64,000 bases of DNA from Escherichia phage UE-S1, in the sequence record ON568341.1; one strand, given 5' to 3'. The notes beneath the pieces are model-generated. The model did not search any database. It had not been told where the DNA came from and saw only the letters and a list, made by a program, of their open reading frames with translations. Made by a program: the position numbers and the translations under genes. Below, piece by piece: positions 15,296-46,405 of this stretch. Each line of letters starts with the position of its first letter. Positions within the stretch are counted from its first letter, which is position 1.

Positions 15296-15539
15296 AATGC
15301 TAGTACTGACAGAACTAGAAATGTATCATAGATTTAACAAGTACTATCATTTACTTAAGCCTATACAGAGGATTAAATGTCCATTTGAAGAGAAACAGGT
15401 ATTAATTTATGAGCATAAGTTATTTGTATCATTAGGTACGAATGAACAAGAGTATTATTTGAAGTTGTACTTAATTACTTTAATTGAATTGATTAATCAC
15501 AAAACTCAGAAAGCTAAGAAATCTAAAAATGAAAACTAA
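15288..15539 (+). CDS. FamA small paralog
   Basis: motif LGTNEQEYYL. Confidence 0.6.
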   Translation: MFKMLVLTELEMYHRFNKYYHLLKPIQRIKCPFEEKQVLIYEHKLFVSLGTNEQEYYLKLYLITLIELINHKTQKAKKSKNEN

Positions 15540-15867
15540 TATTCAACTCAAGGTATACATATCTTATGAATCTATATACATCAAATGCAGTCTATGTAAA
15601 GATGTAATGGATTATAAAGGTAAGCCATTCACAATTACTTACAGTCTAACAGGAGGTTTTTATATATCTTTTGTTGATTACGAAAATAAAATATACAAGC
15701 ACATTGATATTAAAGATTTAAGTACCTTGTCAGATGAGGAATACTTTCAAGAATCATTAGTATGGGATTTAGAGTTTCCTATGACATTAGTACACAAAAT
15801 GATAGTTCTAATGAAAGAAACTAAACCTGAGCCGAGTGGTTATGAAGAATTCATTATTGAGTATTAA
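15529..15867 (+). CDS. FamB paralog (FQ-S motif family)
   Basis: motif SDEEYFQESLVWD. Confidence 0.6.
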   Translation: MKTNIQLKVYISYESIYIKCSLCKDVMDYKGKPFTITYSLTGGFYISFVDYENKIYKHIDIKDLSTLSDEEYFQESLVWDLEFPMTLVHKMIVLMKETKPEPSGYEEFIIEY

Positions 15868-15879
15868 GAGTACTGATAT

Positions 15880-16095
15880 ATGAAAATATTATCATACAAA
15901 GATTATAGTAAGCTTATCAGTGCTTTGCAACCAGAAATTAGGAGAATTAATTCTCTTCCTGTATCTAATGCAGAATGTACAGTACTGAAAAAAGAGTTAA
16001 TATTAAAACGCACAGTAGGTACTAACTATCAGGATAATAGTGTTCGAGATTTAATTAGAGGGTTAATGAACACAATAAAGGCCAAGTGCCATTGA
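15880..16095 (+). CDS. FamA small paralog
   Basis: motif VGTNYQDNSV. Confidence 0.6.
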   Translation: MKILSYKDYSKLISALQPEIRRINSLPVSNAECTVLKKELILKRTVGTNYQDNSVRDLIRGLMNTIKAKCH

Positions 16096-16101
16096 CAGTA
16101 C

Positions 16102-16130
16102 TTGACGGAGCTTTTCATTACTGATATAGT
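16102..16130 (+). promoter_or_regulatory. sigma70-type promoter (TTGACG-17-TATAGT)
   Basis: TTGACG 16102-16107, TATAGT 16125-16130. Confidence 0.45.
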
Positions 16131-16159
16131 ACACAAACGTTAATCATAGGGTAGAAATT

Positions 16160-16405
16160 ATGTTAAAATTTTTAAATTTCCTTATCGTCTTGTGTATTGT
16201 TCTTGGGATTGCACCGTTTGTACTGGTGTATATGGATTCAGATGAAATGCAAAAGATGAATTGCACAAAGACGGGACAGAGTAGAGAAGAGACGATTCTT
16301 ATGCCTGTTACCGTTATTGTTAATAATATGCCCATTACAAACATGGTCCCTAACCTAACGACAACGTACCAGTACTCTTGTACAGACGGGGAGAGGTGGA
16401 GATGA
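16160..16405 (+). CDS. hypothetical small membrane protein
   Basis: N-terminal hydrophobic segment FLNFLIVLCIVLGIAPFVLVY. Confidence 0.5.
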   Translation: MLKFLNFLIVLCIVLGIAPFVLVYMDSDEMQKMNCTKTGQSREETILMPVTVIVNNMPITNMVPNLTTTYQYSCTDGERWR

Positions 16406-16722
16406 AATTTAATATAGCAAAAACATCGAATGTATGTATATTTGGTTATGCAGATGAGTTAGGTGATCTTGACATTCTTTTGTACAAAAAGGATGGTGTT
16501 ATGCATTTCAAGTACCAGGATGAAGAGGCAGACAATTATCCTTTACCTAATTTAGTACAAATGCAGGAAGAGGAATTATTCCAGTACAGCTTAGTATATG
16601 ACATTGATATTTGCACGATGCCAGTACTAATTAATATTCAAAAAGTGATGCTCGATGTGTTTGATAGGCTAATACAAGGCACACAAGGAAGAACCATATA
16701 TGTCAATGTACAAGACAATTAA
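16402..16722 (+). CDS. FamB paralog
   Basis: motif EEELFQYSLVYD; ATGA overlap. Confidence 0.6.
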   Translation: MKFNIAKTSNVCIFGYADELGDLDILLYKKDGVMHFKYQDEEADNYPLPNLVQMQEEELFQYSLVYDIDICTMPVLINIQKVMLDVFDRLIQGTQGRTIYVNVQDN

Positions 16723-16915
16723 TCAAGAATGGAAGACCCAAAAATACAGAGAATTCAATAGGAATTTTACAAAAGACGAATTGAATATAAAAACAACAGA
16801 ATTTGATATGTTTATTTTTCTCGGAACACGTTCACAGGAGCAATTTGTTCATTATTATATAAATTCGTTGCGAACGGAGATAGTATGCAAAACAAAGGGT
16901 ATTATAAAAAGGTAA
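16700..16915 (+). CDS. FamA-like paralog
   Basis: motif LGTRSQEQFV. Confidence 0.55.
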   Translation: MSMYKTINQEWKTQKYREFNRNFTKDELNIKTTEFDMFIFLGTRSQEQFVHYYINSLRTEIVCKTKGIIKR

Positions 16916-17151
16916 ACCAACATTTGTACGCTACAAAGTACAGGGATTTTTGTTTAAAGGGTGGTGATGAAGATTTTTCTTTGCGATTATCAGAATTTAA
17001 TCTGTTATTTTATCTTGGTACATCGGAACAAGAAGAAATGGCACAGAAATTTATCAAGCACCTTGTACAAAAAATTAATATGCAAATTTTGATGCTTAAG
17101 TTACAGAATGAGATAAATGAATATGAACCCAACAATAGTACTGGATCTTAA
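16885..17151 (+). CDS. FamA-like paralog
   Basis: motif LGTSEQEEMA. Confidence 0.55.
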   Translation: MQNKGYYKKVNQHLYATKYRDFCLKGGDEDFSLRLSEFNLLFYLGTSEQEEMAQKFIKHLVQKINMQILMLKLQNEINEYEPNNSTGS

Positions 17152-17660: not shown

Positions 17661-17864
17661 GTGCAAAATAGTAATACGATAACATTAAATGCATTACAGG
17701 ATTCATTATTAGATAGTATTAAGATGTATTACAATATACATTTGAGGGGTGGCATTGATGATTATAATTATTATTTGAGTTTAATTGTAATTGAGCACCT
17801 TTCAGTACAGGACAGGATTTTACATCCTACAAATCCTATGTATCCATCAATAGGTAAATTATGA
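17661..17864 (+). CDS. hypothetical protein (67 aa)
   Basis: ORF track; ATGA overlap with next gene. Confidence 0.4.
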   Translation: MQNSNTITLNALQDSLLDSIKMYYNIHLRGGIDDYNYYLSLIVIEHLSVQDRILHPTNPMYPSIGKL

Positions 17865-18418
17865 ATGAGATAGAGTTATTAGCACACAAGATAAGTACAA
17901 TAATGCTTATCCTCAATAACAACCATCCTATATCGCAGATAGATGGAATCCTGAGTCAGAGGACAGGTGGTAGTTTATATTTGTCCATAAACGCAAATAT
18001 CGCAAGGAAATACATTGACATTGGTGATGTTGATGCTGAAATCGAATGTGATACAACTGGAATTGTTGATGTAGGTGCATTAATCAGTTCAAATCCTGTA
18101 TCAGTATCCCCATTGACCAAAGGTGTTAGTACAGGATTCGAAGGATATTTGTGGTATAATGCTAATGATAATTATTTTATATATCAGCATTCCAATACAA
18201 ATTATGATGAAGATAAATTTGAGTTCATTGACCCTTATGATGAAGCTGGAGTATTTCAACAATCATTAATCACAAAACCACATCAAATGATGTATCTAAT
18301 GTTATTCAGTACAATGAATTTGAATCCATTAATTAATGGTTTAAAGTTTTATATTCAATTGAATCTGGTTCATATAGTTTATGATTTATTAATGCAAGGA
18401 TATAGTTATGAAGTATAA
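17861..18418 (+). CDS. FamB paralog
   Basis: motif EAGVFQQSLITK. Confidence 0.55.
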   Translation: MNEIELLAHKISTIMLILNNNHPISQIDGILSQRTGGSLYLSINANIARKYIDIGDVDAEIECDTTGIVDVGALISSNPVSVSPLTKGVSTGFEGYLWYNANDNYFIYQHSNTNYDEDKFEFIDPYDEAGVFQQSLITKPHQMMYLMLFSTMNLNPLINGLKFYIQLNLVHIVYDLLMQGYSYEV

Positions 18419-18710
18419 AATGATGTATACTCCAGATATGATTTATGTTGAATTAGAAGACGATGACGACGGGTGGAATTTGATTTATTCAATTAGTTCA
18501 GGTTGGTACATGGCACATTTAAATGATAACAAAGTTACAGATTATTTTGTAGATTTCAACACCTTATCCGATGAAGAATTGTTTCAACAACAATTAGTGA
18601 TTGATACAGGTGGTTATGATGTGTTATTATTAAAAAAGATACAGAAAGCTGTTATTGATTTTAAGCCCAATATGTTGCAAAGGAAATATTATGACATCGA
18701 AGTACAATAA
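18408..18710 (+). CDS. FamB paralog
   Basis: motif DEELFQQQLVID. Confidence 0.6.
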   Translation: MKYKMMYTPDMIYVELEDDDDGWNLIYSISSGWYMAHLNDNKVTDYFVDFNTLSDEELFQQQLVIDTGGYDVLLLKKIQKAVIDFKPNMLQRKYYDIEVQ

Positions 18711-19044
18711 TGTATTTGATATTAAGAAATTAAAAGAATGGGTTTATAGTATTGAAATTGAAGCAATTCCTTATCATAGATACAAACAATATGATTTATG
18801 TAATATAGATATTCGTGAGTTGTACGCATATTATCAGAGTGCATTAGAGATGCATAAGATATTTTTGAGTTCAAATTACATGACACGTTGTAATGATGCT
18901 TTTAAAGAATTTAATAATTATAATTTAGTACAAAAATATGTAGTATCAAAGTACATGTACAATCAAGGAATTAAAGGTTGTATTGAATTCAATTCGGTCT
19001 TTGCTTTAGTTGAGATAATTTTATGCAGTACATGTCTGATTTAG
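18691..19044 (+). CDS. hypothetical protein
   Basis: ATG 18691 after AAGGAAA RBS; no FamB motif. Confidence 0.45.
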   Translation: MTSKYNNVFDIKKLKEWVYSIEIEAIPYHRYKQYDLCNIDIRELYAYYQSALEMHKIFLSSNYMTRCNDAFKEFNNYNLVQKYVVSKYMYNQGIKGCIEFNSVFALVEIILCSTCLI

Positions 19045-19520
19045 AGTTTAGTTTAGATGCTGCTTTTAAATTTGTACACAAGATAGAAACAATATATCGT
19101 ACATTATGTGCAATACGATTAGTAACATCTGAACTTGATGTTGGTAAAAGGTATCAGGTATGGAATAACACATTTCTAGACAAAGAGCGTTGTTCAACTG
19201 GGTTTAATATTTTATCATTTAATCCAAGTAATTGTTACCCAGAGAAGCATGAGCGTTATCCGAATGATGACATGTGGTTTGAGTACAAAGAAGATGGTGA
19301 TATGTCGTTCATTGAAGTTCCTGATGATTTTAATGCACAAGATTTAACTGAAGAATGGTGGTTCCAGCAGAATTTAGTCCACGATGATATTGATTTATTT
19401 TTTTATGTAGTATTTAAAATGCTTTATCATAACAAGATAGTACAAGATAGTGTATTTTTTTCATGTCTATATATTGATGATTTGTACAATGAAATTCAAA
19501 TCAACATGCCTGTATCGTAA
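19023..19520 (+). CDS. FamB paralog
   Basis: motif EEWWFQQNLVHD. Confidence 0.6.
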   Translation: MQYMSDLEFSLDAAFKFVHKIETIYRTLCAIRLVTSELDVGKRYQVWNNTFLDKERCSTGFNILSFNPSNCYPEKHERYPNDDMWFEYKEDGDMSFIEVPDDFNAQDLTEEWWFQQNLVHDDIDLFFYVVFKMLYHNKIVQDSVFFSCLYIDDLYNEIQINMPVS

Positions 19521-19545
19521 GATATGGGCTTTTTTTGTTTTGGTA

Positions 19546-19574
19546 TTGACATAGAAGTACAAAACTGTTATCAT
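19546..19574 (+). promoter_or_regulatory. sigma70-type promoter, extended -10 (TTGACA-17-TGTTATCAT)
   Basis: TTGACA 19546-19551; followed by strong RBS AAAGGAGGAA. Confidence 0.5.
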
Positions 19575-19600: not shown

Positions 19601-20134
19601 ATGGCGAGTTTTATGGTTCCAAGTACATACGAAGATGCATCAAGTGCAGTGCATAAGGTTCATCATATTTTTAATTTAATTATTAATGCATCAAAAAATA
19701 AAATGTATGCACCTCTAGTGAAATTTAATAAAAATGAGGAAATTTTTGTTAGTACAGAACAAACGATTTTTCCATATTTCAATAAAGATAGATTATGGTT
19801 CATGCATTCAGTCGCATTACAAAGATATAATATAACAAGATCCAACGAAAATCATAATCCAAGATATTTGCATATATCGTTATACCATCCCGATATTGGA
19901 GAGGATGAATATTTTCAGTACAGCACAGTACACCACCATGAAGATATCTTTGCTGCTATGCTTATTGCTAAATTGAACACCGTTGATTTGGAGAAGCACA
20001 AATACAATAATAAATCATGTAAGATCATAATCCCTGCATTCATAGCTCTTTATGATTATGTGGTGCATAACAAAAAAGATGATACATATGCTTTCAATGA
20101 AGAGTATTTGAATTTTTTTAAGGAGAACATATGA
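19601..20134 (+). CDS. FamB paralog
   Basis: motif EDEYFQYSTVHH; RBS AAAGGAGG. Confidence 0.65.
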   Translation: MASFMVPSTYEDASSAVHKVHHIFNLIINASKNKMYAPLVKFNKNEEIFVSTEQTIFPYFNKDRLWFMHSVALQRYNITRSNENHNPRYLHISLYHPDIGEDEYFQYSTVHHHEDIFAAMLIAKLNTVDLEKHKYNNKSCKIIIPAFIALYDYVVHNKKDDTYAFNEEYLNFFKENI

Positions 20135-20661
20135 GCAGTACAACAGTACAGAAAGCAATGACATTCAATGAAATTGGTACATTTAAAGATAAGATCATTG
20201 ATTGCCTTGAATACATGATTTGTAGTAATATTGAGAGTATCGAAATATTTAACAAGAGAAATCGCTCTTACCATATGATGTACACTGCAAAAAATACTGG
20301 TATCATTCCATTTATTTCGGATAGCACAATATGGTACGCATGTGATACGAAAAAATACACAGCAGGTTCGTATAGCGTAGGGTCACATACGGAATTGATT
20401 ATTCCTGAGCATTGTATACAAGAAGAAGAATATTTTCAAATGCAATGTGTACATTCACCATTAGAGTTGTTTAGTTTATATATGATACCGTATATTTCTA
20501 AATGTGTTCATGAGAATAAAGCTCCGTGGAATCATGAATTTGTATCGTTGAAGTTATTGTATAATGTATTAGTAGAATATTATGATTACAGGCACAATGG
20601 TACAATCAGTGATGTATGGGATTTTGAATCGCTAAGGGTGAAAACATACACAGGTGAATGA
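20131..20661 (+). CDS. FamB paralog
   Basis: motif EEEYFQMQCVHS. Confidence 0.6.
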   Translation: MSSTTVQKAMTFNEIGTFKDKIIDCLEYMICSNIESIEIFNKRNRSYHMMYTAKNTGIIPFISDSTIWYACDTKKYTAGSYSVGSHTELIIPEHCIQEEEYFQMQCVHSPLELFSLYMIPYISKCVHENKAPWNHEFVSLKLLYNVLVEYYDYRHNGTISDVWDFESLRVKTYTGE

Positions 20662-21277
20662 TATGACCAGAATTAAAATGTATGATTTGATGCAGTACAG
20701 TAAAATTGCAATTCCAGTACTTAATAAAGTGCTGGATGCATTCATTGCCAAATACCCTGAGAATTCAGAGTTACGCATTCCATTTCGTGTACCAGATAAA
20801 GATGATATATTCCAAGTGAATGTCAGTACACGTGGTATTACATTGCAGCAGAAATACATGGATACAGAATATTATGGAATAAAGTTGGATTCAGTTCAGG
20901 GTTCGAAATCAGCCTATGATTTTTTTGTTCCTAATAATATAGAGTCATGGGAAACAAACATTTCAAAGAAAGATGAAAATGATGTTCCTATTAGCGGTGA
21001 ATTAAACAATAAAGTTTTTTATTATTACGAAACTGATAAATTCCCTGAAGAGTTATATTACAATTCAGAAATGAGTGAAGATGTAGATGCATTTATGTTT
21101 CAATTATCTTTAGTACATGATATCATCGACGTTCAAGAGTTAAGAGCAGAAATCAATTTAGCTAAAGAGTTGTCGGACATGTTGCCACCGTTTAGTATGA
21201 TTTTTTGTGAAGGAGGTTATTTTACAAAAGAAGTGTTTGAACATTTCGTAGATGTTGTAAAAGGGTTGGATATATAG
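20654..21277 (+). CDS. FamB paralog
   Basis: motif DAFMFQLSLVHD. Confidence 0.6.
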   Translation: MNDMTRIKMYDLMQYSKIAIPVLNKVLDAFIAKYPENSELRIPFRVPDKDDIFQVNVSTRGITLQQKYMDTEYYGIKLDSVQGSKSAYDFFVPNNIESWETNISKKDENDVPISGELNNKVFYYYETDKFPEELYYNSEMSEDVDAFMFQLSLVHDIIDVQELRAEINLAKELSDMLPPFSMIFCEGGYFTKEVFEHFVDVVKGLDI

Positions 21278-21481: not shown

Positions 21482-21997
21482 ATGCATCAACACAAGCATC
21501 ATTCATATGATTTTGCAATTAACATTATGAAGTTCATTCGAGCGTTGGAGGATGGGAAGCTTAGTCATAAGTACAGGAAAGAGGGTAACAATTGGTTCAG
21601 AAATGATTCCGAGTTCAGGAGTCATAACATCGTGTATAGCAATCAGTACAGTGCCAATTACCTACAAGATGTAGTGATGTGTTTTGAATATGTATTGCAG
21701 TTCAGGGGTACAATCCAGAATGAATTAATGGATCACATGTACATCCGATACCTTCCAATGCATAAAGATGAAAATGCATTATTAGGTTCAATATACCAAC
21801 GAGTAAGGGAAATTGAGTGCAGGGATATATTAGATACAGAAGAATCGTATTTCCAGCAATCTCTTATTACTGCACCTGATTCATTACAGGCACATAATTT
21901 GTTTAATACATTACGTCAGAACATCAGTACAGACATATTTTTGTCATTATTGGATTATGATACATTTGTCAAAGATTTAGAGGAAATAGGTTTATGA
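21482..21997 (+). CDS. FamB paralog
   Basis: motif EESYFQQSLITA. Confidence 0.6.
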   Translation: MHQHKHHSYDFAINIMKFIRALEDGKLSHKYRKEGNNWFRNDSEFRSHNIVYSNQYSANYLQDVVMCFEYVLQFRGTIQNELMDHMYIRYLPMHKDENALLGSIYQRVREIECRDILDTEESYFQQSLITAPDSLQAHNLFNTLRQNISTDIFLSLLDYDTFVKDLEEIGL

Positions 21998-22350
21998 GTA
22001 TATTTTCGGTTTGTGTGGTAAACATAAAAAGTGATGGTAGTTTAATTGAATTTGAACTAGTTGATGACGATTATAATGCATATGGTATTAAAGTACAGGG
22101 CAATGATGTACAGTTCAGTGCAAGAACAGATTATGAAAATCCAGTCCATGTTCCTAATTTCATAGAAGATGAAGCAACCCGATTCCAATACGAAACGGTA
22201 TATGACAATGTACATATGCATATTGTTATGCAACAAAGTTTAGTTCAATTAGTTCCTTTGTTCAGACAAAATATATATGTACACGAGATAACGATTGGTG
22301 GCATAAGTAAATCCGTGTTATTCCGTACAATTGATTCCTATGATATGTAA
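21994..22350 (+). CDS. FamB paralog
   Basis: motif EATRFQYETVYD. Confidence 0.55.
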   Translation: MSIFSVCVVNIKSDGSLIEFELVDDDYNAYGIKVQGNDVQFSARTDYENPVHVPNFIEDEATRFQYETVYDNVHMHIVMQQSLVQLVPLFRQNIYVHEITIGGISKSVLFRTIDSYDM

Positions 22351-26934: not shown

Positions 26935-26935
26935 A

Positions 26936-31100: not shown

Positions 31101-31107
31101 GGTCTTT

Positions 31108-35496: not shown

Positions 35497-35551
35497 GTGT
35501 TTATGGCTTTACAAGAGCATTCAGGTGTGTTATACTTGATTTCAAATAGAG

Positions 35552-38775: not shown

Positions 38776-38836
38776 ATTTATACCAGGGGTTGACTCTGGT
38801 ATTTTTGTATGATACATTATCCTAAAGGAGAATTTT

Positions 38837-39388: not shown

Positions 39389-39987
39389 GAAAAAGTTATC
39401 AAGAAACTATTGACCTAATTAGAGAAGTTATTAAAGTGGCCCCTGGTGCGATAGCATTCAAGAAGTCCCTATATAAAAAGTATGGCTCCATGTCAAATAT
39501 GTGTTGTCAAAAGAAACGTAGTAAATTCACTACGCAGTACTGGCATGATTCTATTATCCTTAGTAATGAACATCAGCGTATTTTAACAATCGAATCAGTA
39601 GATAATCAATATGGTGAAGGAATGATTTGTGTACCTGATTATGATGAAATTAACTTCAACTGCGGTGATTTTGAAACAACATTATTACTTCACGAGGGTT
39701 ATCCAGAAGGTGATGTATTAGCTGAGTACAATCCAAAAACTAAAATTCTCAAAAGAGGAATCCAGTTCACTATTAATAACAAAGATGATGTTGAAGCAGC
39801 ACTAATGCAACTGAGTACAAGTGAACCTATTACTATTAGTGTAGAAGAGTTATGGGGAATTATTTCAGTCCTCAATGAATGCTACAAAGTAAAATCATTG
39901 CGTAATCACACCCTTATATTGCATACTAATATGGCAAATATAAAATGTAAGCACATTCAAGAAATGGCGGTTCCAGATGGACTTTAA
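39385..39987 (+). CDS. FamB-like divergent paralog
   Basis: motif EAALMQLSTSEP; ATGA overlap. Confidence 0.5.
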   Translation: MRKSYQETIDLIREVIKVAPGAIAFKKSLYKKYGSMSNMCCQKKRSKFTTQYWHDSIILSNEHQRILTIESVDNQYGEGMICVPDYDEINFNCGDFETTLLLHEGYPEGDVLAEYNPKTKILKRGIQFTINNKDDVEAALMQLSTSEPITISVEELWGIISVLNECYKVKSLRNHTLILHTNMANIKCKHIQEMAVPDGL

Positions 39988-40561
39988 AGAAATTGAAAGT
40001 AAATTAAAGTACTTCAAAGATATCAAACTTCTTTGGGAAAAGTATAAAATTGATTACAAATTCAGTGATGATGAGACAATAAAATCCATTGATATTAATA
40101 TCAAAATCAAGTTCAAGAATAATAATTATGGTGAAGTAAGCTTAAATCATACTGGTGTATCACTCAGGGACTATGATGGTTCAACACTCGCATATTTCGA
40201 CTTCATTCCAGAACCAGGTGAAACACTACTTAGTGAGATAAATTCCTATGATATGGAAATATTCGGCGGGAATCCGTTACTGTTCCGACTGTCTGAAGAG
40301 TGGAGTGAAGAATACTACACTTACAAAGATGGTGTAGTACTTGACATTAATGGAGAAGTTGTGAATGACTTGGAAGAACGTTTGTTCCAAGAATTGTGTG
40401 TTTCAAATACTTCATATGCATACAATCATATCCTTGACATGTTTGATTTATATAGTAAAATAGATGCTGAAATGAATGCACATGGTATTCATTACCTTAC
40501 AATTAACGACTATGCTCAACTCGAAACCGCTGTGAAAGCATTGACTAAAGTACTGAAATAG
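39977..40561 (+). CDS. FamB-like paralog
   Basis: motif EERLFQELCVSN. Confidence 0.5.
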   Translation: MDFKEIESKLKYFKDIKLLWEKYKIDYKFSDDETIKSIDINIKIKFKNNNYGEVSLNHTGVSLRDYDGSTLAYFDFIPEPGETLLSEINSYDMEIFGGNPLLFRLSEEWSEEYYTYKDGVVLDINGEVVNDLEERLFQELCVSNTSYAYNHILDMFDLYSKIDAEMNAHGIHYLTINDYAQLETAVKALTKVLK

Positions 40562-40570
40562 GAATGAAAT

Positions 40571-40984
40571 ATGAAACTGTATCATGCGAGTACTGTAAAA
40601 ATTGATAACTTTTATATCCCGTATGGTGGTCTTCATATGGGAGGTAAACACAGTGCTTTGGAAGCTGCATTACGCAAGCTGAGAAGCCCACTGAACGTAG
40701 TAGACGCATGTACAGTATACTTGCATACCTTAGAAGTTGATGTTGATAACGTGCTTCTGTGTGAAGATTTAGGCAGTGATGATGAGTGGCGTTCACTTAT
40801 TGAGAATTGCACTGCTCAAGGTTATGATGCTGTTCAGTACAAAAATGATTACGAGCCAGACAATGTTCCTAGCTTTATGATTTGGGATGCATCTAAAGTT
40901 CGCATCATTGAAGTTGATGCTATGCATATGGATGAAGCTGAAATGATTATCGAAGATTTTCTTGATGAATATGAAGGTGTATAA
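40571..40984 (+). CDS. hypothetical protein (137 aa)
   Basis: ORF track; no family motif. Confidence 0.5.
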   Translation: MKLYHASTVKIDNFYIPYGGLHMGGKHSALEAALRKLRSPLNVVDACTVYLHTLEVDVDNVLLCEDLGSDDEWRSLIENCTAQGYDAVQYKNDYEPDNVPSFMIWDASKVRIIEVDAMHMDEAEMIIEDFLDEYEGV

Positions 40985-41520
40985 TGACTGACCCGATGGT
41001 AGCACTGGCACGTACTAAGTTACTATTAAAGATTGGTGAGATTTTTACGGTTCTTCTGTCCAATAATATTGATATTACTGAGCTAGATATTAAGCAACCG
41101 TGGGAAGTGACTATGTTCTCGGCGTTCCACCGATTGTCATATAAAGGTGAAAGTGTTCTTGATTTTAACCCTAAAGCAAAATTCATAGATTATGCTGCGT
41201 TGTACAGAGAGTTGCACCGAAATATTTATTCCGGTTGTATAACCAATAACTTCAAAGAAATTAAAGTTCAAACTGCATCACATGAGTTCAATGATTTACT
41301 CTATCCAGAATTTAATCTAACTGAAGAATTACTTTTTCAGTACTCGTTAATTCTCACAAATCTAGAATCACTCGAGTACTACACAAAGTTAGTAGATATT
41401 TTTATGAATACACGACTTTCAAAAGATATTGTGATATTCTGGTATACAGAGCATGTTACGGAGGAATTGCTTACTGAATTTCTTCTAAATATGACAGCTA
41501 TAAAGGAGAAGTTATGTTAG
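40984..41520 (+). CDS. FamB paralog
   Basis: motif EELLFQYSLILT. Confidence 0.6.
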   Translation: MTDPMVALARTKLLLKIGEIFTVLLSNNIDITELDIKQPWEVTMFSAFHRLSYKGESVLDFNPKAKFIDYAALYRELHRNIYSGCITNNFKEIKVQTASHEFNDLLYPEFNLTEELLFQYSLILTNLESLEYYTKLVDIFMNTRLSKDIVIFWYTEHVTEELLTEFLLNMTAIKEKLC

Positions 41521-41987
41521 ATATTTTAGGAAACATCGATACTGCAAATTATTTTATCCAAGACGCACTGTTTAATACACTACAAAAAGGTTTAGAAGTT
41601 CGTTACAACGTATATCAAGGTGATGGATATTTTGTTGATATTCTAGAAACACGTAAAAATACATTTAATGTTAACATTACGACGTTTGGAAGACAGAACA
41701 TTGCACGAATTTTAGTAAGTAAAGATGAAATAGTACTGAGATACAGTGCTAAGTTTATGTTGACGTACAAGAAAAAAACAGACATGTTCAGTACTAATTT
41801 ATTTGATGAACCATTTGACCTTGTAGATATTGAAGCTACTTTCTTTACTCAAAGTACTATGGTAAAATACACTGATGTTCAATTTTCATCAGACGTTATG
41901 TCTGAAACATTACAAATGATCAAGGTATTATTTTATGCATTTGAGCAATTCAGAGAAGAAAGAAACAAGGTTAACAACCACAGATGA
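41514..41987 (+). CDS. FamB-like divergent paralog
   Basis: motif EATFFTQSTMVK. Confidence 0.5.
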   Translation: MLDILGNIDTANYFIQDALFNTLQKGLEVRYNVYQGDGYFVDILETRKNTFNVNITTFGRQNIARILVSKDEIVLRYSAKFMLTYKKKTDMFSTNLFDEPFDLVDIEATFFTQSTMVKYTDVQFSSDVMSETLQMIKVLFYAFEQFREERNKVNNHR

Positions 41988-42348
41988 ACTAATAGAGGCG
42001 ATCACTAAGGAGTCAAAATACCACAAAGGGATTCGTCTATATTTTATAGATCTTGGTTCGATGGAAGGTACATACATTTATGGTTCACAATCATTGTCTT
42101 ATGATGCAATGCCAGATAAACATGTTAAAATCTTTCTAGGTTCAAGTAATAAAACTTTCTTGACAATTAATGATAACAGTGTTATTATGAATTCCCTGGG
42201 TCATGACAAAGTAGAAATTGACCTAAACACATTAGAAGAAATGGATTTTTTTCAATACGAGTGTTTAGGCGTTGACTTACATGGTATCAGTAGTGATATG
42301 ATAAAATCATTAATTAAATATTTCGAAGGTGTTTATAAATGTATCTAA
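41935..42348 (+). CDS. FamB-like paralog
   Basis: motif EEMDFFQYECLG; start uncertain (53-nt overlap). Confidence 0.45.
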   Translation: MHLSNSEKKETRLTTTDELIEAITKESKYHKGIRLYFIDLGSMEGTYIYGSQSLSYDAMPDKHVKIFLGSSNKTFLTINDNSVIMNSLGHDKVEIDLNTLEEMDFFQYECLGVDLHGISSDMIKSLIKYFEGVYKCI

Positions 42349-42845
42349 CTAAATCGATGAAAAATTCATTAGATAATATAAAGAGTGTAATTAGTGGTGA
42401 GTATATTGCTAGTGTAACACAAACTGCTGACCAGATACAAAGTAGTTCTAGTGATTGTACTGTGATTCTCGGTTTACACAGTCTACGTTTATCAATAGTA
42501 AATAATATTGACAACACTGCTATTGTAATCACACCATGTCATATTCAAAATGAGAATGGTGTATATCTTCATCACATGGGAACAGTATTTTACATTTTCA
42601 ATACAAACAATACACTCGAAACAATTGTCAAAGAATATAATACACTTAACATTGATCCGGGTGAATTATTTCAGATGAGTACGTTGTATTCATGTGATTT
42701 TACAGATACCTCACATATTTTACCATTTTTCTTGGAAATTCTAAAGAAAATGGAAAAATTAAATCGTGAATACAATAAAAAAATGGTTCCAGAAGCTATA
42801 TTAAATATTACTGATGCTATGAAAAAATATAAAGCAGTGCCTTAA
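42339..42845 (+). CDS. FamB paralog
   Basis: motif PGELFQMSTLYS. Confidence 0.6.
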   Translation: MYLTKSMKNSLDNIKSVISGEYIASVTQTADQIQSSSSDCTVILGLHSLRLSIVNNIDNTAIVITPCHIQNENGVYLHHMGTVFYIFNTNNTLETIVKEYNTLNIDPGELFQMSTLYSCDFTDTSHILPFFLEILKKMEKLNREYNKKMVPEAILNITDAMKKYKAVP

Positions 42846-43366: not shown

Positions 43367-43498
43367 ATGGCTAAGAAAGTAAACAATTTCGTACAGAAAC
43401 ACATGAATGAGTTTAACAAGCCTCAGACACATGTGGATCGTAAAAAAGAAATGAAAAATGGTAAAGTAAAACACAAGTCGAGATTTATTCTCGACTAA
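43367..43498 (+). CDS. hypothetical small basic protein (43 aa)
   Basis: ATG after GGAGT RBS; lysine-rich; ends inside terminator hairpin; not in track. Confidence 0.3.
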   Translation: MAKKVNNFVQKHMNEFNKPQTHVDRKKEMKNGKVKHKSRFILD

Positions 43499-44392: not shown

Positions 44393-44686
44393 ATGGATAC
44401 TAAATTCAAAATTATTTTTAAAACTAAGCCGTATATTCCACATACAGCAGAACGTTTTATACCACATGATGCAGAGGAAATTATTCATCAAGATGGTACA
44501 AAGTTATATCTAGTGCCATGTTCATATGAACGTGCAGTAGAAATGTTACTCATGAATTCTAAATTATGTACAAACAAGTACATTAGTTACTTATATAATG
44601 AACATATTTTAGATTTTAATGATGAAAATATGTTTATTCTGGCAATTGAAGATTTTAATAATTGGTACAACATTATTAAAATCTGA
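44393..44686 (+). CDS. hypothetical protein (97 aa)
   Basis: RBS GGAGGA upstream. Confidence 0.5.
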   Translation: MDTKFKIIFKTKPYIPHTAERFIPHDAEEIIHQDGTKLYLVPCSYERAVEMLLMNSKLCTNKYISYLYNEHILDFNDENMFILAIEDFNNWYNIIKI

Positions 44687-44693
44687 TAAAATA

Positions 44694-44731
44694 TTGTGAA
44701 CATATTAAATCTTTATGATATAATGTTCACA
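44694..44731 (+). promoter_or_regulatory. promoter flanked by 9-bp inverted repeat (TGTGAACAT / ATGTTCACA)
   Basis: TTGTGA -35 and TATAAT 44719-44724 lie inside a perfect palindrome; candidate operator. Confidence 0.45.
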
Positions 44732-44756
44732 TCTTTTTTTGATAATGGAGATATAG

Positions 44757-45143
44757 ATGAATACAAGTTCAATCCTAAAAGCAATTGGTGGTGTTTTACT
44801 TATTGAAGTGAAAGGTGAACCAAAACTGTGCTGTTTGGAAGATATGAAGAATACAAAACACTTCAGTACTGGTCAGATTTTTAATGCCATTCGTGTTCTA
44901 AATGATAAATCAATCGCTGATTATGGTAAAGTTTGGCCTGTATATCAAAACGCAGATGGTGATATCAGTTCTGACTGGAAAACCATTGAAGCAGTCCGAC
45001 AAAGTTGTGATAGCGACTGGGACTTCATTGTAGAAGTATGTGACCAACTTCAAGAAGATGTACCAGAAATTGTGGAACGAAAGGAAGTTCTGGCAAATCT
45101 AGAAAAGTTCCGTCATGGAACACTACCATATGATACAATCTAA
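44757..45143 (+). CDS. hypothetical protein (128 aa)
   Basis: RBS GGAGATA; downstream of palindromic promoter. Confidence 0.5.
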   Translation: MNTSSILKAIGGVLLIEVKGEPKLCCLEDMKNTKHFSTGQIFNAIRVLNDKSIADYGKVWPVYQNADGDISSDWKTIEAVRQSCDSDWDFIVEVCDQLQEDVPEIVERKEVLANLEKFRHGTLPYDTI

Positions 45144-45193
45144 TCTACTTATTAAAAAATAGCTAGTTAACATTATATAAAAAGGAATTTAAA

Positions 45194-45499
45194 ATGGAAG
45201 ATAATGGAATGAAATTTGATATGTTTGAGGGTGTACCTGAGTTTGATTTTAACAAACTAGAAAATGGTGAAGAGTCAGAACTCGTTAGTGTTACACTTAA
45301 AGCAGATTCTAAAAAGAAATATTCATCAACGGTACGTTCACGTTCACAAGAAGAATATGAATCTTTCATTGAGAGTATTCATTATGAAACATTATATCAT
45401 AAAGATGGAACTCCATATGAAGTACGTGTAACAGTACTGAAGCCTGAAGTGAATCCAATGGAAAATCTACGTCCTGTTTACTGCTGGGCAAGTCACTAA
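45194..45499 (+). CDS. hypothetical protein (101 aa)
   Basis: RBS AAGGAA; terminator follows. Confidence 0.5.
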   Translation: MEDNGMKFDMFEGVPEFDFNKLENGEESELVSVTLKADSKKKYSSTVRSRSQEEYESFIESIHYETLYHKDGTPYEVRVTVLKPEVNPMENLRPVYCWASH

Positions 45500-45508
45500 T
45501 AAACCAAT

Positions 45509-45537
45509 GGACGGGATTTCATATCTCGTCCTTTTTT
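45509..45537 (+). terminator. rho-independent terminator
   Basis: GGACGGGAT / ATCTCGTCC imperfect stem plus TTTTTT. Confidence 0.5.
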
Positions 45538-45550
45538 ATATGGAGATTTT

Positions 45551-46405
45551 ATGAAACTTTATCTAATAGTTGACTATAATAAGGATTATGCTGGTAACTT
45601 CACCGAAGATTCGGATGGATATTGCACATCGACTAATGTCAATGTACGTAGCAGTAGTGCTCATGAACATGAATCTTGTAAAAATCTAAAAGATTTTATC
45701 ACATACCGAGCATTTGAAAAGAACTTCTGCCGCAGTAGATATTCTAAGTTTGAGTACCCATTAATTGATGTTCCTGATGAATTGATGTTCCAGCTAATGT
45801 TAACTGGAGTTCAAGATTATGATTATATTGCTTATAATCACATAACAAAGAAGATTTACATTGGAACATCAGTACACGATACTTCCATGTATGCATCATG
45901 CCCAGATGATCGAATGAAGCATAGAAATTCATACTATAGTGGATCAGTTGGTTCAAATAATTCATCAAATAAAAATTCATTCTTTGAGTACGTGTATGAT
46001 TACCATCACGAGAAAAAAGAACGTGAAGATTACTGTATAGAGATTGATAGTACTAATGGATATGAAGACGTAAAAGAAGCTCTTATGCCATACATTATAG
46101 AAAAATACTACAAAGATTTTCAGTACTGTAGTAATTTTCTAATCAGAAATTCTATTCAAATCGGTCGTCAATCCACTGCATACGCTATGTACTACAGTGA
46201 TTCTCCAGTTGTAGCAGGAAATGAAAGGGGTGATATCCTACCAATTCCACGTGAAGATATGACATTCATTTTTACATCTTTTATTGAGGATGATGAATTG
46301 TACGTTAAAAATAAGCATCGTTTCATGCCAAGTAAAATTGAGATTATTAGAAGCATCAGTGTTGATATATTAACCAATTTTACTGAAAAAACTGAATATA
46401 ACTGA
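45551..46405 (+). CDS. hypothetical protein with FamB-like motif (284 aa)
   Basis: motif DELMFQLMLTGV at residues 67-78; RBS GGAGA. Confidence 0.55.
   Translation: MKLYLIVDYNKDYAGNFTEDSDGYCTSTNVNVRSSSAHEHESCKNLKDFITYRAFEKNFCRSRYSKFEYPLIDVPDELMFQLMLTGVQDYDYIAYNHITKKIYIGTSVHDTSMYASCPDDRMKHRNSYYSGSVGSNNSSNKNSFFEYVYDYHHEKKEREDYCIEIDSTNGYEDVKEALMPYIIEKYYKDFQYCSNFLIRNSIQIGRQSTAYAMYYSDSPVVAGNERGDILPIPREDMTFIFTSFIEDDELYVKNKHRFMPSKIEIIRSISVDILTNFTEKTEYN

What the first reader, a model, noticed from the sequence alone, without database searches (positions are those of the whole stretch)
15529..46405. Hyper-expanded FamB family: >50 paralogs over ~30 kb sharing an EE-x-[LY]-F-Q-x-S-[LT]-V-x-D module
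Roughly 50 consecutive + strand genes of 100-285 aa (and two more at 53977-55241) carry a conserved ~40-residue module beginning with acidic residues then [LYF]-F-Q-x-S-[LT]-[VI]-[YHF]-D and an amphipathic stretch, usually near the C-terminus. N-terminal regions differ in length and sequence. The array has only a few internal promoters (19546, 31641) and terminators (35475, 43477). Nearly half of the window is one family of unknown function; variable domain fused to constant module is the architecture expected for cargo with a shared targeting, packaging or partner-binding module.
Basis: seen in the sequence. Interest (0 to 1): 0.9.

Follow-up and report, generated by a model that had tools for sequence, protein, structure and literature searches.

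The report
Giant uncharacterised gene family in jumbo phage
A jumbo E. coli phage devotes about 8% of its genome to some 60 diverged copies of one small protein with a fold seen nowhere else; the copies are real, conserved and apparently made early in infection, but nobody has described them or knows what they do.

Summary
The window comes from an Asteriusvirus jumbo coliphage, about 91% identical in nucleotides to 121Q, PBECO4 and phAPEC6. Forty-five + strand ORFs carry the [ST]-E-E-x-[YLF]-F-Q-x-S-[TL]-[IVL]-[YH]-D motif: 43 within 15529-46405 and two at 53977-55241. A profile built only from foreign sequences recovers 34, with no hits on the minus strand. A whole-genome census of a relative finds 61 copies, including a second cluster outside the window.

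The family recurs as a syntenic array in RaK2 (31 or more copies), Salmonella phage 7t3 (18), Eneladusvirus (5) and metagenomic contigs. Each copy has a 1:1 ortholog under purifying selection (median dN/dS 0.23). No family gene is among the 62 phAPEC6 virion proteins.

The proteins are acidic and soluble, and conserved sigma-70-type promoters sit in the array gaps. My best reading is an early-expressed battery of host-takeover or counter-defence binders. That mechanism is inferred, not shown.

The parts
15529..15867 (+). FamB member, short form (112 aa), motif SDEEYFQESLVWD
   Evidence: External-only profile E=4.2e-8.
16378..16722 (+). FamB member, short form (true start probably later than the TTG)
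   Evidence: External-only profile E=3.2e-9.
17861..18418 (+). FamB member, long form (185 aa)
   Evidence: External-only profile E=3.7e-12. N-terminal-only profile E=6.8e-4.
18408..18710 (+). FamB member, short form (100 aa)
   Evidence: External-only profile E=1.1e-4. Module HMM E=5e-11.
19023..19520 (+). FamB member, long form (165 aa)
   Evidence: External-only profile E=1e-14.
19601..20134 (+). FamB member, long form (177 aa)
   Evidence: External-only profile E=6.2e-9.
20131..20661 (+). FamB member, long form (176 aa)
   Evidence: External-only profile E=1.4e-13.
20654..21277 (+). FamB member, long form (207 aa)
   Evidence: Combined profile E=3.5e-5. Module HMM E=9e-7.
21482..21997 (+). 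FamB member, long form (171 aa)
   Evidence: External-only profile E=8.7e-15.
21994..22350 (+). FamB member, short form (118 aa)
   Evidence: External-only profile E=2.1e-4.
22360..22908 (+). FamB member, long form (182 aa)
   Evidence: External-only profile E=1.1e-9.
23543..24271 (+). FamB ORF with two short-form units (modules at aa 58-101 and 180-234). phAPEC6 has separate genes at this place.
   Evidence: Two module-HMM domains, E=1e-11 and 2e-12. External-only profile E=3.7e-7. Indel comparison with phAPEC6.
24268..24627 (+). FamB member, short form (119 aa)
   Evidence: Module HMM E=5.7e-10 (this profile includes the ORF itself). Closest paralogs are 23543 and 30051.
24637..25110 (+). 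FamB member, long form. First of a recent tandem cluster of five.
   Evidence: External-only profile E=8e-21. 58% identical to 26022.
25112..25582 (+). FamB member, long form (recent cluster)
   Evidence: External-only profile E=2.2e-18.
25579..26022 (+). FamB member, long form (recent cluster)
   Evidence: External-only profile E=8e-19.
26022..26510 (+). FamB member, long form (recent cluster)
   Evidence: External-only profile E=2.4e-20.
26488..26934 (+). FamB member, long form (148 aa). This is the protein that was modelled.
   Evidence: External-only profile E=1.1e-24. AlphaFold2 pLDDT 92.4, pTM 0.87.
26912..27250 (+). FamB member, short form
   Evidence: External-only profile E=3.5e-4.
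27555..28004 (+). FamB member, long form (149 aa), motif STEEGYFQGSTLYN
   Evidence: External-only profile E=2.4e-20.
28001..28537 (+). FamB member, long form (178 aa). One of the few basic members (pI 8.6).
   Evidence: Combined profile E=1.4e-8. pI.
28889..29452 (+). FamB member, long form (187 aa)
   Evidence: External-only profile E=1.3e-8.
30051..30413 (+). FamB member, short form (120 aa)
   Evidence: External-only profile E=2.5e-4. Matches phrog_13866.
30337..30780 (+). FamB member (true start probably later than the TTG)
   Evidence: External-only profile E=4.8e-7.
30759..31100 (+). FamB member, short form (113 aa)
   Evidence: Combined profile E=2.3e-6.
31060..31644 (+). FamB member, long form
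   Evidence: External-only profile E=6.3e-24.
31704..32180 (+). FamB member, long form (158 aa). First protein modelled.
   Evidence: External-only profile E=2.5e-19. AlphaFold2 pLDDT 75.8.
32177..32680 (+). FamB member, long form (167 aa)
   Evidence: External-only profile E=1.9e-21.
32637..32999 (+). FamB member, short form (120 aa)
   Evidence: External-only profile E=1.2e-9.
32983..33396 (+). FamB member, short form (137 aa)
   Evidence: External-only profile E=3.1e-5.
33384..33878 (+). FamB member, long form (164 aa, basic, pI 8.8)
   Evidence: External-only profile E=2e-20.
33862..34404 (+). Probable divergent FamB member (degenerate motif MERIKFSLSD)
   Evidence: An iterative search from this ORF recruits family members. 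hhalign probability 98.7%. No direct HMM hit.
34401..34964 (+). FamB member, long form. Has collinear orthologs in RaK2 and in the metagenome contig.
   Evidence: External-only profile E=2.9e-14. Best hits L004 22147 and L002 12929.
34912..35475 (+). FamB member, long form (187 aa)
   Evidence: External-only profile E=1.8e-9.
36127..36711 (+). FamB member, long form (194 aa)
   Evidence: Combined profile E=3.6e-6.
36698..37276 (+). FamB member, long form (192 aa)
   Evidence: External-only profile E=2.4e-8.
37276..37704 (+). Probable divergent FamB member (degenerate motif SLALQYQVLYN)
   Evidence: An iterative search from this ORF recruits family members. hhalign probability 98.7%.
37701..38210 (+). 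FamB member, long form (169 aa)
   Evidence: Module HMM E=2.8e-8. hhalign probability 99.1% over 136 columns.
38194..38775 (+). FamB member, long form (193 aa)
   Evidence: External-only profile E=2.7e-7.
38837..39388 (+). FamB member, long form (183 aa)
   Evidence: External-only profile E=4.4e-6.
39977..40561 (+). Weakly supported FamB member (motif LEERLFQELCV)
   Evidence: Module HMM E=6.3e-9, but that profile includes the ORF itself. hhalign E=0.005, motif region only.
40984..41520 (+). FamB member, long form (178 aa)
   Evidence: External-only profile E=6.6e-7.
41935..42348 (+). Weakly supported FamB member (137 aa)
   Evidence: Combined profile E=9.3e-4.
42339..42845 (+). FamB member, long form (168 aa)
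   Evidence: External-only profile E=0.0048. Combined profile E=8.9e-7.
45551..46405 (+). Weakly supported member (284 aa; motif PDELMFQLMLTG sits near the N-terminus)
   Evidence: Module HMM E=7.3e-8, but that profile includes the ORF itself. Not recovered by the combined or external profiles. hhalign E=0.037.
53977..54555 (+). FamB member outside the main array (192 aa)
   Evidence: Combined profile E=9.2e-8.
54552..55241 (+). FamB member outside the main array (229 aa; motif SEEEHFQLMMM)
   Evidence: External-only profile E=7.7e-6.
16102..16130 (+). Sigma-70-type promoter-like site in an array gap (TTGACG-17-TATAGT)
   Evidence: Found. Hexamers conserved in phAPEC6 and EC22.5-2.
19508..19574 (+). 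Terminator-like hairpin (19508-19529) followed by a promoter-like site (19546-19574, TTGACA-17-TATCAT)
   Evidence: Found. Hexamers conserved in phAPEC6 while the flanks vary.
31641..31670 (+). Perfect sigma-70-type promoter-like site with extended -10 (TTGACA-18-TG-TATAAT) in a 60-bp gap
   Evidence: 12 of 12 matches. Identical in phAPEC6 and EC22.5-2.
35474..35536 (+). Terminator-like hairpin (35474-35494) followed by a promoter-like site (35508-35536, TTTACA-17-TATACT)
   Evidence: Found. Conserved in phAPEC6 and EC22.5-2.
38780..38818 (+). Terminator-like hairpin overlapping a promoter-like site (TTGACT-17-TACATT)
43476..43496 (.). Two-way terminator-like hairpin near the end of the array

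Best explanation
This is a lineage-specific multigene family of the RaK2-like jumbo phages.

**What it is**
- Each gene encodes one small, soluble and usually acidic protein of 100-210 aa.
- The protein is a single alpha/beta domain: an N-terminal helix, a seven-stranded sheet, a short helix, a long helix and a final strand. No solved structure resembles it.

**What the shared 'module' is**
- The module is the most constrained part of that domain: the short helix and the turn into the long helix.
- Its flanking polar positions have the residue preferences of helix N-caps. It therefore acts mainly as the folding core rather than as a separable tag.

**How it evolved**
- The family arose by tandem duplication long ago, before Asteriusvirus, Alcyoneusvirus and the 7t3 lineage split.
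- It now stands at about 60 copies per Asteriusvirus genome, in a main array and a second cluster.
- Each copy is kept as its own ortholog under purifying selection, while paralogs have diverged to about 20% identity.

**How it most likely works (inferred)**
- The genes are transcribed by the host sigma-70 RNA polymerase early in infection and are not built into the virion.
- One stable scaffold presents many different surfaces, each binding a different host or competitor target.
- Together they would form a battery for host takeover and counter-defence.
For: **Shown here**
- Family membership is supported by 45 window ORFs, 34 of them by a fully external profile, with no minus-strand hits.
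- A relative's whole genome holds 61 copies, 28.8 kb or 8.2% of the genome, all on one strand. This includes a second cluster of 14.
- The protein is a single confident domain (pLDDT 92.4, pTM 0.87).
- Homology runs the full length, and an N-terminal-only profile hits 13 members.
- Positions 102 (T/S/D/N) and 114 (D/S/N/T) show helix N-cap preferences.
- Purifying selection acts on 1:1 syntenic orthologs against phAPEC6: dN/dS is 0.02-0.62 with a median of 0.23.
- Shine-Dalgarno-like sequences precede 29 of 44 starts, against 8-13% at control positions.
- The array is old and collinear. Orthologs in RaK2 and a metagenome contig are 23-31% identical, while the neighbouring cytidylyltransferase is 57% identical.
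- Copy number differs by lineage: 61 per Asteriusvirus genome (41 in the window-equivalent stretch of phAPEC6), RaK2 31 or more, a metagenome contig 34 in 20 kb, Salmonella phage 7t3 18, Eneladusvirus 5.
- The proteins are soluble and acidic, with median pI 4.8, median net charge -10 and no membrane segments.
- Sigma-70-type promoter-like sites in the array gaps are conserved between phages.

**From papers**
- None of the family genes is among the 62 phAPEC6 virion proteins (PMC7247149; mapping).
- In the related phage CBB, RpoD-like promoters are concentrated in the block of short hypothetical ORFs, which the authors take to be early host-takeover genes (PMC5259590).

**By association**
- The clusters lie next to counter-defence genes. 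These are Dam, RNA ligase 1 and PseT kinase/phosphatase near the main array, and a second DNA methyltransferase in the other cluster.
Against: - No experiment or homology bears on function, so the takeover or counter-defence role rests on timing, location and analogy.
- Early timing is itself inferred from promoter consensus. The overall number of promoter-like matches is not above shuffled expectation; only their placement in gaps and their conservation argue for them.
- The family is not hypervariable between close relatives. Nucleotide identity is 92.5% in the array against 93-94% in the flanks, and no dN/dS exceeds 1. The fast arms-race signature often seen in counter-defence genes is therefore absent.
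- Q108 and F107 are invariant, and E103, E104 and S110 nearly so. This is stronger than a purely structural role usually needs and could mark a shared functional site.
- Virion mass spectrometry can miss low-copy proteins.
Confidence: 0.45

Rival explanations
1. Adaptor family with a shared partner. The conserved acidic-aromatic-Gln-Ser helix is an exposed docking site for one common machine. Candidates include the phage-encoded ClpP protease or a host protease, RNA polymerase or the ribosome. The diverged remainder of each paralog would recruit a different target to that machine. This is the surviving part of the first reader's 'partner-binding module' idea.
For: - The polar residues of the motif are conserved at the level of identity across 150 sequences that are only about 20% identical: E103 and E104 83-84%, Q108 100%, S110 91%.
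- Both faces of the short helix are conserved.
- No conserved basic residue elsewhere in the protein pairs with the two glutamates.
- The phage encodes its own ClpP, gp353c, just beyond the window.
Against: - The motif is not a separable module. It is an internal helix and turn of a single domain with pLDDT above 95.
- Positions 102 and 114 look like ordinary helix N-caps.
- The F/Q invariance is partly circular. Array ORFs with degenerate motifs, such as 39349 LMQLSTS, 35552 LMFNANLL and 41514 FFTQSTM, escape the profile.
- No similarity to F-box, BTB, SOCS or PRANC modules was found.
- Solvent exposure could not be computed here.
Confidence: 0.15
2. Virion cargo. The proteins are packaged into the capsid, or ejected with the DNA, by means of the shared module, like T4 internal proteins or phiKZ inner-body proteins.
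For: - phAPEC6 has a capsid inner body (PMC7247149 abstract).
- A shared motif on many otherwise different small proteins is what a targeting tag would look like.
Against: - None of the family genes located in phAPEC6 (about 60) is among the 62 virion proteins detected (mapping).
- The motif is internal to a folded domain, not an N-terminal targeting peptide.
- The array carries sigma-70-type promoters, not late-type ones.
- It lies in the one-directional block of small ORFs regarded as early in the relative CBB.
Confidence: 0.05
3. Intracellular structural assembly. The paralogs co-assemble into a hetero-oligomeric lattice or scaffold inside the infected cell, for example around replicating DNA. 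Many copies would then be needed for assembly rather than for many different targets.
For: - All copies share one conserved core motif.
- All copies are co-oriented and probably co-transcribed.
Against: - Paralogs are only about 20% identical and differ in length from 100 to 210 aa. This is unlike the subunits of a lattice.
- Copy number ranges from 5 to 61 between lineages.
- The Sharanji paper describes subcellular organisation without nucleus-like compartmentalisation for this phage type (PMC11895373).
Confidence: 0.05
4. Non-functional duplication debris. Most copies would be decaying or untranslated ORFs left over from tandem amplification.
For: - Several array ORFs have only degenerate motifs.
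- A few copies differ in presence, fusion or truncation between close relatives.
Against: - All 43 FamB orthologous pairs with measurable divergence have dN/dS of 0.02-0.62.
- Reading frames are intact in window, phAPEC6 and EC22.5-2.
- Collinear orthologs persist across genera at 23-31% identity.
- Shine-Dalgarno-like sequences are enriched upstream of the starts.
Confidence: 0.03

Closest known systems
Multigene families of large eukaryotic DNA viruses (African swine fever virus MGF360/MGF505; poxvirus ankyrin/PRANC and Bcl-2-like families). This comparison rests on my own knowledge.
   Same: - Dozens of tandem, co-oriented and highly diverged paralogs of one small non-structural protein.
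- Copy number differs between lineages.
- The genes sit in accessory or early regions and are linked to host manipulation.
   Different: - This family is in a bacteriophage.
- The fold is unrelated to any of those families.
- Function is untested.
- The array is old and stable, with 1:1 orthologs under purifying selection, rather than a rapidly breathing 'accordion'.
Lineage-specific expansion of about 35 zinc-ribbon proteins in Bacillus phage G (Iyer et al. 2021, PMC7824862)
   Same: A jumbo phage with tens of copies of one small domain, described as a lineage-specific expansion with only guessed function.
   Different: - The domain is different: a new alpha/beta fold here, against a known zinc ribbon there.
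- There are more copies here (about 61).
- The family is shared across several genera. The review cited does not mention it.
PHROGs phrog_9317, 12674, 13866, 15629, 30978, 35776, 34636, 15199, 37163 and others (all 'unknown function')
   Same: The window proteins belong to these clusters, with E-values from 1e-47 down to 1e-136, and show weak cross-hits between them.
   Different: PHROGs splits the family into many separate groups. It gives no function and no indication that they form one superfamily of about 60 copies per genome.
Early host-takeover and anti-defence small proteins of T-even phages and DNA-mimic anti-restriction proteins (Ocr, ArdA). This comparison rests on my own knowledge.
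   Same: - Small, acidic, soluble and non-virion proteins.
- Sigma-70-type promoters.
- Located near DNA methyltransferase and RNA-repair counter-defence genes.
   Different: - Those proteins are single-copy genes, not a 60-member family.
T4 internal proteins and phiKZ inner-body proteins (virion cargo with a targeting sequence). This comparison rests on my own knowledge.
   Same: Several otherwise different small proteins share a short conserved sequence.
   Different: - Those carry an N-terminal targeting peptide cleaved by the prohead protease and are abundant in virions.
- Here the motif is internal to the fold, and no member was found in the virion.

Membership tests
Viral lineage-specific multigene family (tandem paralog expansion) | Many paralogs of one protein clustered in tandem and co-oriented in one genome | tested here: met
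   45 ORFs in the window. A relative's genome holds 61, in two clusters and all on one strand.
Viral lineage-specific multigene family (tandem paralog expansion) | Copy number and content differ between related viruses | tested here: met
   - Copy numbers are 61 (Asteriusvirus), 31 or more (RaK2), 18 (7t3) and 5 (Eneladusvirus).
- Window and phAPEC6 differ by 2-3 gene gains, losses or fusions.
Viral lineage-specific multigene family (tandem paralog expansion) | Members are non-structural host-interaction factors | tested here: inconclusive
   - Members are absent from the phAPEC6 virion proteome.
- Sigma-70-type promoters sit in the array gaps.
- No functional data exist.
Virion cargo with a capsid-targeting sequence (T4 IP type, phiKZ inner body type) | Protein present in purified virions | tested here: not met
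   None of gp011c, gp054c, gp083c-134c, gp291c, gp378c/379c or gp396c-466c is in Table 1 of PMC7247149. This rests on published mass spectrometry, not on new data.
Virion cargo with a capsid-targeting sequence (T4 IP type, phiKZ inner body type) | Short N-terminal targeting peptide removed by the prohead protease | tested here: not met
   The conserved motif lies at residues 102-114 of 148, inside a folded domain with pLDDT above 95. Cleavage itself could not be tested.
Substrate-adaptor families with a constant docking box (F-box/PRANC, BTB, SOCS-box) | A separable constant module joined to an unrelated variable domain | tested here: not met
   - The protein is a single domain.
- The N-terminal halves are homologous without the motif.
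- Database relatives align over the full length.
Substrate-adaptor families with a constant docking box (F-box/PRANC, BTB, SOCS-box) | Sequence or fold similarity to a known docking box | tested here: not met
   [not shown]
Substrate-adaptor families with a constant docking box (F-box/PRANC, BTB, SOCS-box) | All members bind one common partner | not testable with these tools
   This needs pull-downs or complex prediction.
DNA-mimic anti-restriction proteins (Ocr/ArdA type) | Strongly acidic surface | tested here: inconclusive
   Median pI is 4.8 and median net charge -10, but the range runs from pI 4.05 to 8.8.
DNA-mimic anti-restriction proteins (Ocr/ArdA type) | Fold similarity to Ocr, ArdA or other known mimics | tested here: not met
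   [not shown]
Any curated protein family (Pfam, NCBIfam, PADLOC) | Score above the family threshold | tested here: not met
   Searches returned only isolated chance-level hits.
PHROGs unknown-function clusters (for example phrog_9317, 12674, 13866, 15629) | Significant profile match | tested here: met
   E-values run from 1e-47 down to 1e-136 for the proper cluster, with weak cross-hits between clusters. All are annotated 'unknown function'.

The most novel reading that the evidence does not exclude
The family would be a phage counterpart of the F-box/PRANC logic. About 60 paralogs would share one exposed docking helix (EE-x-Y-F-Q-x-S) that plugs into a single phage or host machine. The phage's own ClpP protease system is one candidate. 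The diverged sheet and loops of each paralog would capture a different host protein. The phage would then carry a programmable library of substrate adaptors that removes or rewires dozens of host factors, defence proteins included, early in infection.
Probability: 0.12. Interest if true: 0.9.

Novelty: new variant of a known kind. Interest (0 to 1): 0.68.

Why it matters
- About one gene in nine of well-known cultured coliphages (121Q, PBECO4, phAPEC6) belongs to a single family, as do many genes of Klebsiella phage RaK2. That family has a fold of its own and no described function.
- None of the papers I searched or read mentions it: phage genome papers, two jumbo-phage reviews and a pan-genome study.
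- Part of the 'dark matter' of jumbo phages thus becomes one tractable question. The hosts are E. coli and Klebsiella, the proteins are small and soluble, and the 61 copies can be screened one by one.
- If they are host-takeover or anti-defence binders, they form a large natural library of inhibitors built on one scaffold.
- If they share a partner, they would be the first large adaptor family in a phage.
- The result also bears on how jumbo genomes grow. Here 8% of the genome came from ancient internal duplication rather than from gene capture.

Tried and rejected
- **TEV-like cleavage site.** Several members read EEGYFQ(G/S), which fits the E-x-x-Y-x-Q-(G/S) site of potyviral NIa protease. 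I rejected this because the segment is a well-ordered helix (pLDDT above 95). No 3C/NIa-like protease was seen, and the flanking conserved residues fit helix capping.
- **Weak Pfam hits.** T4_MRH (E=0.024), CadC_C1 and others scored below their thresholds and did not recur across 150 members.
- **PADLOC and NCBIfam.** Only chance-level hits.
- **AFDB Foldseek.** The library was unavailable. BFVD returned only the family itself.
- **PA5oct RNA-seq as a proxy for timing.** The PA5oct-like phage Callisto has structural genes, not the array, next to its cytidylyltransferase homolog. Those data therefore do not transfer.
- **Extending membership to the remaining array ORFs.** 29443, 35552, 39349, 41514, 42891 and 43522 gave hhalign probabilities of 10% or less, so they are not counted.
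- **Positive selection.** No ortholog pair has dN/dS above 1.
- **Hypervariability between close relatives.** The array is 92.5% identical against 93-94% in the flanks, so it is not hypervariable.
- **Rfam search of the repeat-bearing gap at 46.4-46.8 kb.** Nothing significant.
- **Literature.** I searched on 121Q, PBECO4, paralog, Asteriusvirus and RaK2, and read the main genome papers and two reviews. The only relevant remarks are that '10% of RaK2 products are paralogues' and that 22 CBB ORFs are paralogs. The GAP32 paper was not available to read.

Full report
**Origin of the window.** A 10-kb piece (23000-33000) matches 35 phage records, 31 named Escherichia and 4 Salmonella. The best are about 91% identical over 99% of the query: EC22.5-2, 121Q, phAPEC6, PBECO4 and Sharanji. 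phAPEC6 is classified in Asteriusvirus. The window is therefore part of a roughly 350-kb RaK2-like jumbo coliphage. G+C is 30-34% across the interval and nearly all genes are on the + strand.

**Check of the observation.**
- A crude regex for the core of the motif hits about 45 + strand ORFs between 15529 and 54555. Outside the array it gives only a few isolated matches, none supported by any profile.
- An HMM of the roughly 55-residue module retrieves 44 ORFs with 45 modules, since 23543-24271 carries two.
- That profile contains the window's own sequences, so I built two further profiles.
- The first combines the window members with 143 database representatives. It finds 41 ORFs and adds 54552-55241.
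- The second is built only from 200 external sequences, none more than 50% identical to a window ORF. They come from RaK2, Salmonella phage 7t3, an Erwinia phage, a metagenome contig and database representatives. It finds 34 ORFs at E<1e-3 and 35 at E<0.01.
- No profile search hit a minus-strand ORF or any ORF outside the family.
- The supported count is 45: 43 inside 15529-46405 and two at 53977-55241. Four of these are weak (24268, 39977, 41935, 45551).
- Two more ORFs (33862, 37276) recruit family members in iterative searches. Six others in the array show at most a degenerate motif and stay unsupported.
- The family covers 34.6% of the window.

**The family is larger than the window shows.** I assembled the whole 351,992-bp genome of the unannotated relative EC22.5-2 and scanned all 1283 six-frame ORFs.
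- The combined profile hits 61 ORFs and the external profile 52, all on one strand. Together they make up 28.8 kb, or 8.2% of the genome.
- Beyond the main array there is a second cluster of 14 members at 302,978-323,281. There are also three singletons.
- In phAPEC6 the second cluster corresponds to gp083c-gp134c. It brackets a DNA methyltransferase, gp123c.
- The singletons correspond to gp011c, gp054c and gp291c.

**It is one domain, not a variable domain plus a constant module.**
- Alignment of 30 long-form members shows only F and Q invariant, but a common pattern along the whole length.
- A profile search of 1.84 billion representative proteins finds 145 clusters at E of 1e-3 or better. 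Most are 145-200 aa long and align across most of the profile, for example positions 9-178.
- AlphaFold2 on 31704-32177 with 30 sequences gave pLDDT 75.8.
- AlphaFold2 on 26488-26931 with 150 sequences gave pLDDT 92.4 and pTM 0.87.
- The second model has helix 3-21, seven strands between residues 30 and 91, a short helix 93-97, helix 103-110 (the EE-x-Y-F-Q-x-S motif), helix 115-129 and strand 135-138.
- Column statistics show conserved hydrophobic positions in every one of these elements.
- With the motif and everything after it removed, a profile of external N-terminal halves still detects the N-terminal halves of 13 window members and nothing else.
- Short forms (100-137 aa) lack the N-terminal helix but keep the sheet, the motif, the long helix and the last strand.

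**Reading of the motif.**
- Position 102 is T, S, D or N and position 114 is D, S, N or T. These are the classical helix N-cap residues, placed just before helices 103-110 and 115-129.
- F107, I/L/V112 and Y/H113 are hydrophobic or aromatic.
- Much of the motif is therefore explained as the corner between two helices, which would be a folding core. This is inference, because I had no coordinates with which to measure burial.
- Q108 (150 of 150), S110 (136 of 150) and E103/E104 (124 and 126 of 150) are more constant than that role needs, and remain unexplained.
- Part of this invariance is circular. Array ORFs whose motif has drifted are exactly those the profiles miss: 39349 LMQLSTS, 35552 LMFNANLL, 41514 FFTQSTM and 37276 ALQYQVL.

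**No known relatives.**
- Pfam gives nothing for 10 members or for all 150 members of the alignment.
- NCBIfam and PADLOC give nothing.
- PHROGs places the members in many separate 'unknown function' clusters with weak cross-hits between them.
- A profile search of all PDB sequences gives no hit at E of 1 or better.
- Foldseek against BFVD returns only uncharacterised proteins of 121Q, SP27 and RaK2, and weakly of GAP32 and Serratia phage BF.
- The AFDB library was not available.

**Distribution and age.**
- Single-sequence tblastn finds the family in 35 Asteriusvirus-type records.
- Cluster look-ups show members in Klebsiella phages RaK2, K64-1, Muenster and KP13-7, and in unnamed metagenome contigs. 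Several entries labelled 'Escherichia coli' sit on contigs of 350-358 kb, which are whole phage genomes.
- The RaK2 locus upstream of its dam gene holds at least 31 members.
- A 101-kb ENA metagenome contig holds 34 members in 20 kb.
- Salmonella phage 7t3 holds 18, and Erwinia phage pEa_SNUABM_49 (Eneladusvirus) holds 5. In both cases they lie upstream of the same methylase and cytidylyltransferase pair.
- A PA5oct-like phage has no such array at the homologous gene.
- Best-hit analysis shows collinear cross-genus orthologs. Window 34401 pairs with RaK2 22147 and contig 12929. Window 36698 pairs with RaK2 23287, 38194 with 26046, 40984 with 28827 and 42339 with 30282. Identities are 23-31%.
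- The neighbouring cytidylyltransferase is 57% identical between the same genera. The array is therefore ancient and evolves faster than its enzyme neighbours.
- By contrast, the five genes 24637-26934 are each other's best hits at 30-58% identity, which marks a more recent local expansion.

**The genes are maintained and probably translated.**
- Against phAPEC6, every FamB gene in the window has a syntenic reciprocal-best ortholog.
- Nei-Gojobori dN/dS ranges from 0.02 to 0.62 with a median of 0.23 and is never 1 or more. The known enzymes in the window range from 0.06 to 0.18.
- Shine-Dalgarno-like sequences precede 29 of 44 starts, against 13% of random positions and 8% of internal in-frame ATGs.
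- Between window, phAPEC6 and EC22.5-2 the array is collinear and 92.5% identical from 23913 to 48057.
- The left end shows turnover:
  - a 547-bp FamB gene (gp458c) is absent from the window;
  - a FamB gene (gp465c) is replaced by a FamA gene;
  - three tandem short-form genes in phAPEC6 correspond to a fused two-unit ORF plus one gene in the window.

**Timing and location.**
- Gaps in the array carry sigma-70-type promoter-like sites. One is a perfect TTGACA-18-TATAAT with an extended -10 at 31641.
- Several sit just after terminator-like hairpins. Their hexamers are conserved in phAPEC6 and EC22.5-2 where the flanks vary, and similar sites occur in RaK2 gaps.
- Genome-wide counts of promoter-like matches are not above shuffled expectation. 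The argument therefore rests on placement and conservation.
- In phAPEC6 the array lies inside a one-directional block of mostly small hypothetical genes, gp353c to gp548c. The block starts at a divergent junction.
- For the relative CBB, Buttimer et al. report that RpoD-like promoters are concentrated in the equivalent block. They regard it as the early, host-takeover region (PMC5259590).
- No transcriptome exists for these phages in the library searched.
- The phAPEC6 virion proteome lists 62 proteins, and none of the family genes is among them (PMC7247149; mapping).
- The proteins have no membrane-like segments. They are mostly acidic, with median pI 4.8 and median net charge -10, against pI 5.9 and charge -1 for other window ORFs.

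**Interpretation.**
- Shown: a real family of about 60 members with a new single-domain fold. It is old, syntenic, under purifying selection, and not detected in virions.
- Inferred: early expression from host-type promoters.
- Inferred by analogy and context: a battery of binders for host takeover or counter-defence. A conserved core would support diversified surfaces. Neighbouring genes include Dam, a second methyltransferase, RNA ligase 1 and PseT.
- I give this mechanism a confidence of about 0.45.
- The main rival, at about 0.15, is that the conserved polar helix is an exposed docking site for one shared partner, making the family a set of adaptors.
- Virion cargo, intracellular lattice and non-functional debris are each unlikely, for the reasons listed under the rivals.

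**Novelty.**
- Multigene families from lineage-specific expansion are well known in large eukaryotic viruses. One 35-copy zinc-ribbon expansion has been noted in Bacillus phage G (PMC7824862).
- None of the papers I could search or read describes this family. The nearest statements are that about 10% of RaK2 products are paralogues (PMC3622015) and that 22 CBB ORFs are paralogs.
- I therefore rate it a new variant of a known kind. It has a new fold, sits in a phage, is unusually large in scale and is unusually old and stable.

Noticed in passing
window 9872-17151 and 28515-28902: A second tandem family ('FamA') has 29 + strand genes of 63-96 aa sharing an [LVI]-G-[TS]-[NDQ]-x-Q motif (LGTNYQE). 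It lies directly upstream of FamB, and two copies are embedded inside the FamB array. It matches phrog_4148 (unknown function) and has no NCBIfam hit.
   Followed up: partly
window 49960-51818 (possibly also 51815-53969 and 57154-63133): A third small paralog family has 6 linked copies of 91-128 aa (phrog_21004, unknown function). Further look-alike ORFs of 85-105 aa downstream were not tested.
   Followed up: partly
EC22.5-2 (OR845138.1) 302,978-323,281; phAPEC6 50.6-71.3 kb (L018): A second FamB cluster of 14 members lies outside the window. These are 117-153 aa, and the motif is followed by 'xxGLTxEDI'. The cluster brackets a DNA methyltransferase (gp123c). Singletons correspond to phAPEC6 gp011c, gp054c and gp291c.
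   Followed up: yes
window 46405-46783: This 378-bp non-coding gap follows a strong terminator (46434-46459). It contains a perfect tandem direct repeat of about 55 nt (CAGAAGAAACCCGTCAGATGTGGGCATAGTTTGAACCCCTCACGGCAATGCGGCT, twice). No significant Rfam match was found.
   Followed up: partly
window 23543-24627 versus phAPEC6 L001 14632-15715: The window has one ORF with two short-form units plus one further gene. phAPEC6 has three separate short-form genes here (gp445c, gp444c, gp443c). This is a tandem copy-number change with a gene fusion.
   Followed up: partly
window 15879-16100 and 18706: A FamA gene in the window occupies the place of a FamB gene (gp465c) in phAPEC6. A 547-bp FamB gene (gp458c) present in phAPEC6 is missing from the window, and EC22.5-2 carries about 1.1 kb extra at that point.
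   Followed up: partly
database proteins P0001, P0002, P0010, P0053 and others: Many copies are filed as 'hypothetical protein [Escherichia coli]' on contigs of 350-358 kb. These are complete jumbo-phage genomes sitting inside bacterial assemblies. Two papers in the library report lytic phages in bacterial isolates, but I did not read them.
   Followed up: no
window 47699-48750 and 55503-58674: Genes flanking the array encode a Dam methyltransferase, a cytidylyltransferase, RNA ligase 1 and PseT polynucleotide kinase/phosphatase, going by the phAPEC6 annotation. This is a counter-defence neighbourhood. A phage ClpP (gp353c) lies just beyond the right end of the window.
   Followed up: partly
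window 40571-40984, 44393-45499, 47137-47682: Several non-family ORFs within or just after the array have their own unknown-function PHROGs (11632, 15570, 16210). They are under strong purifying selection (dN/dS 0.04-0.10).
   Followed up: no
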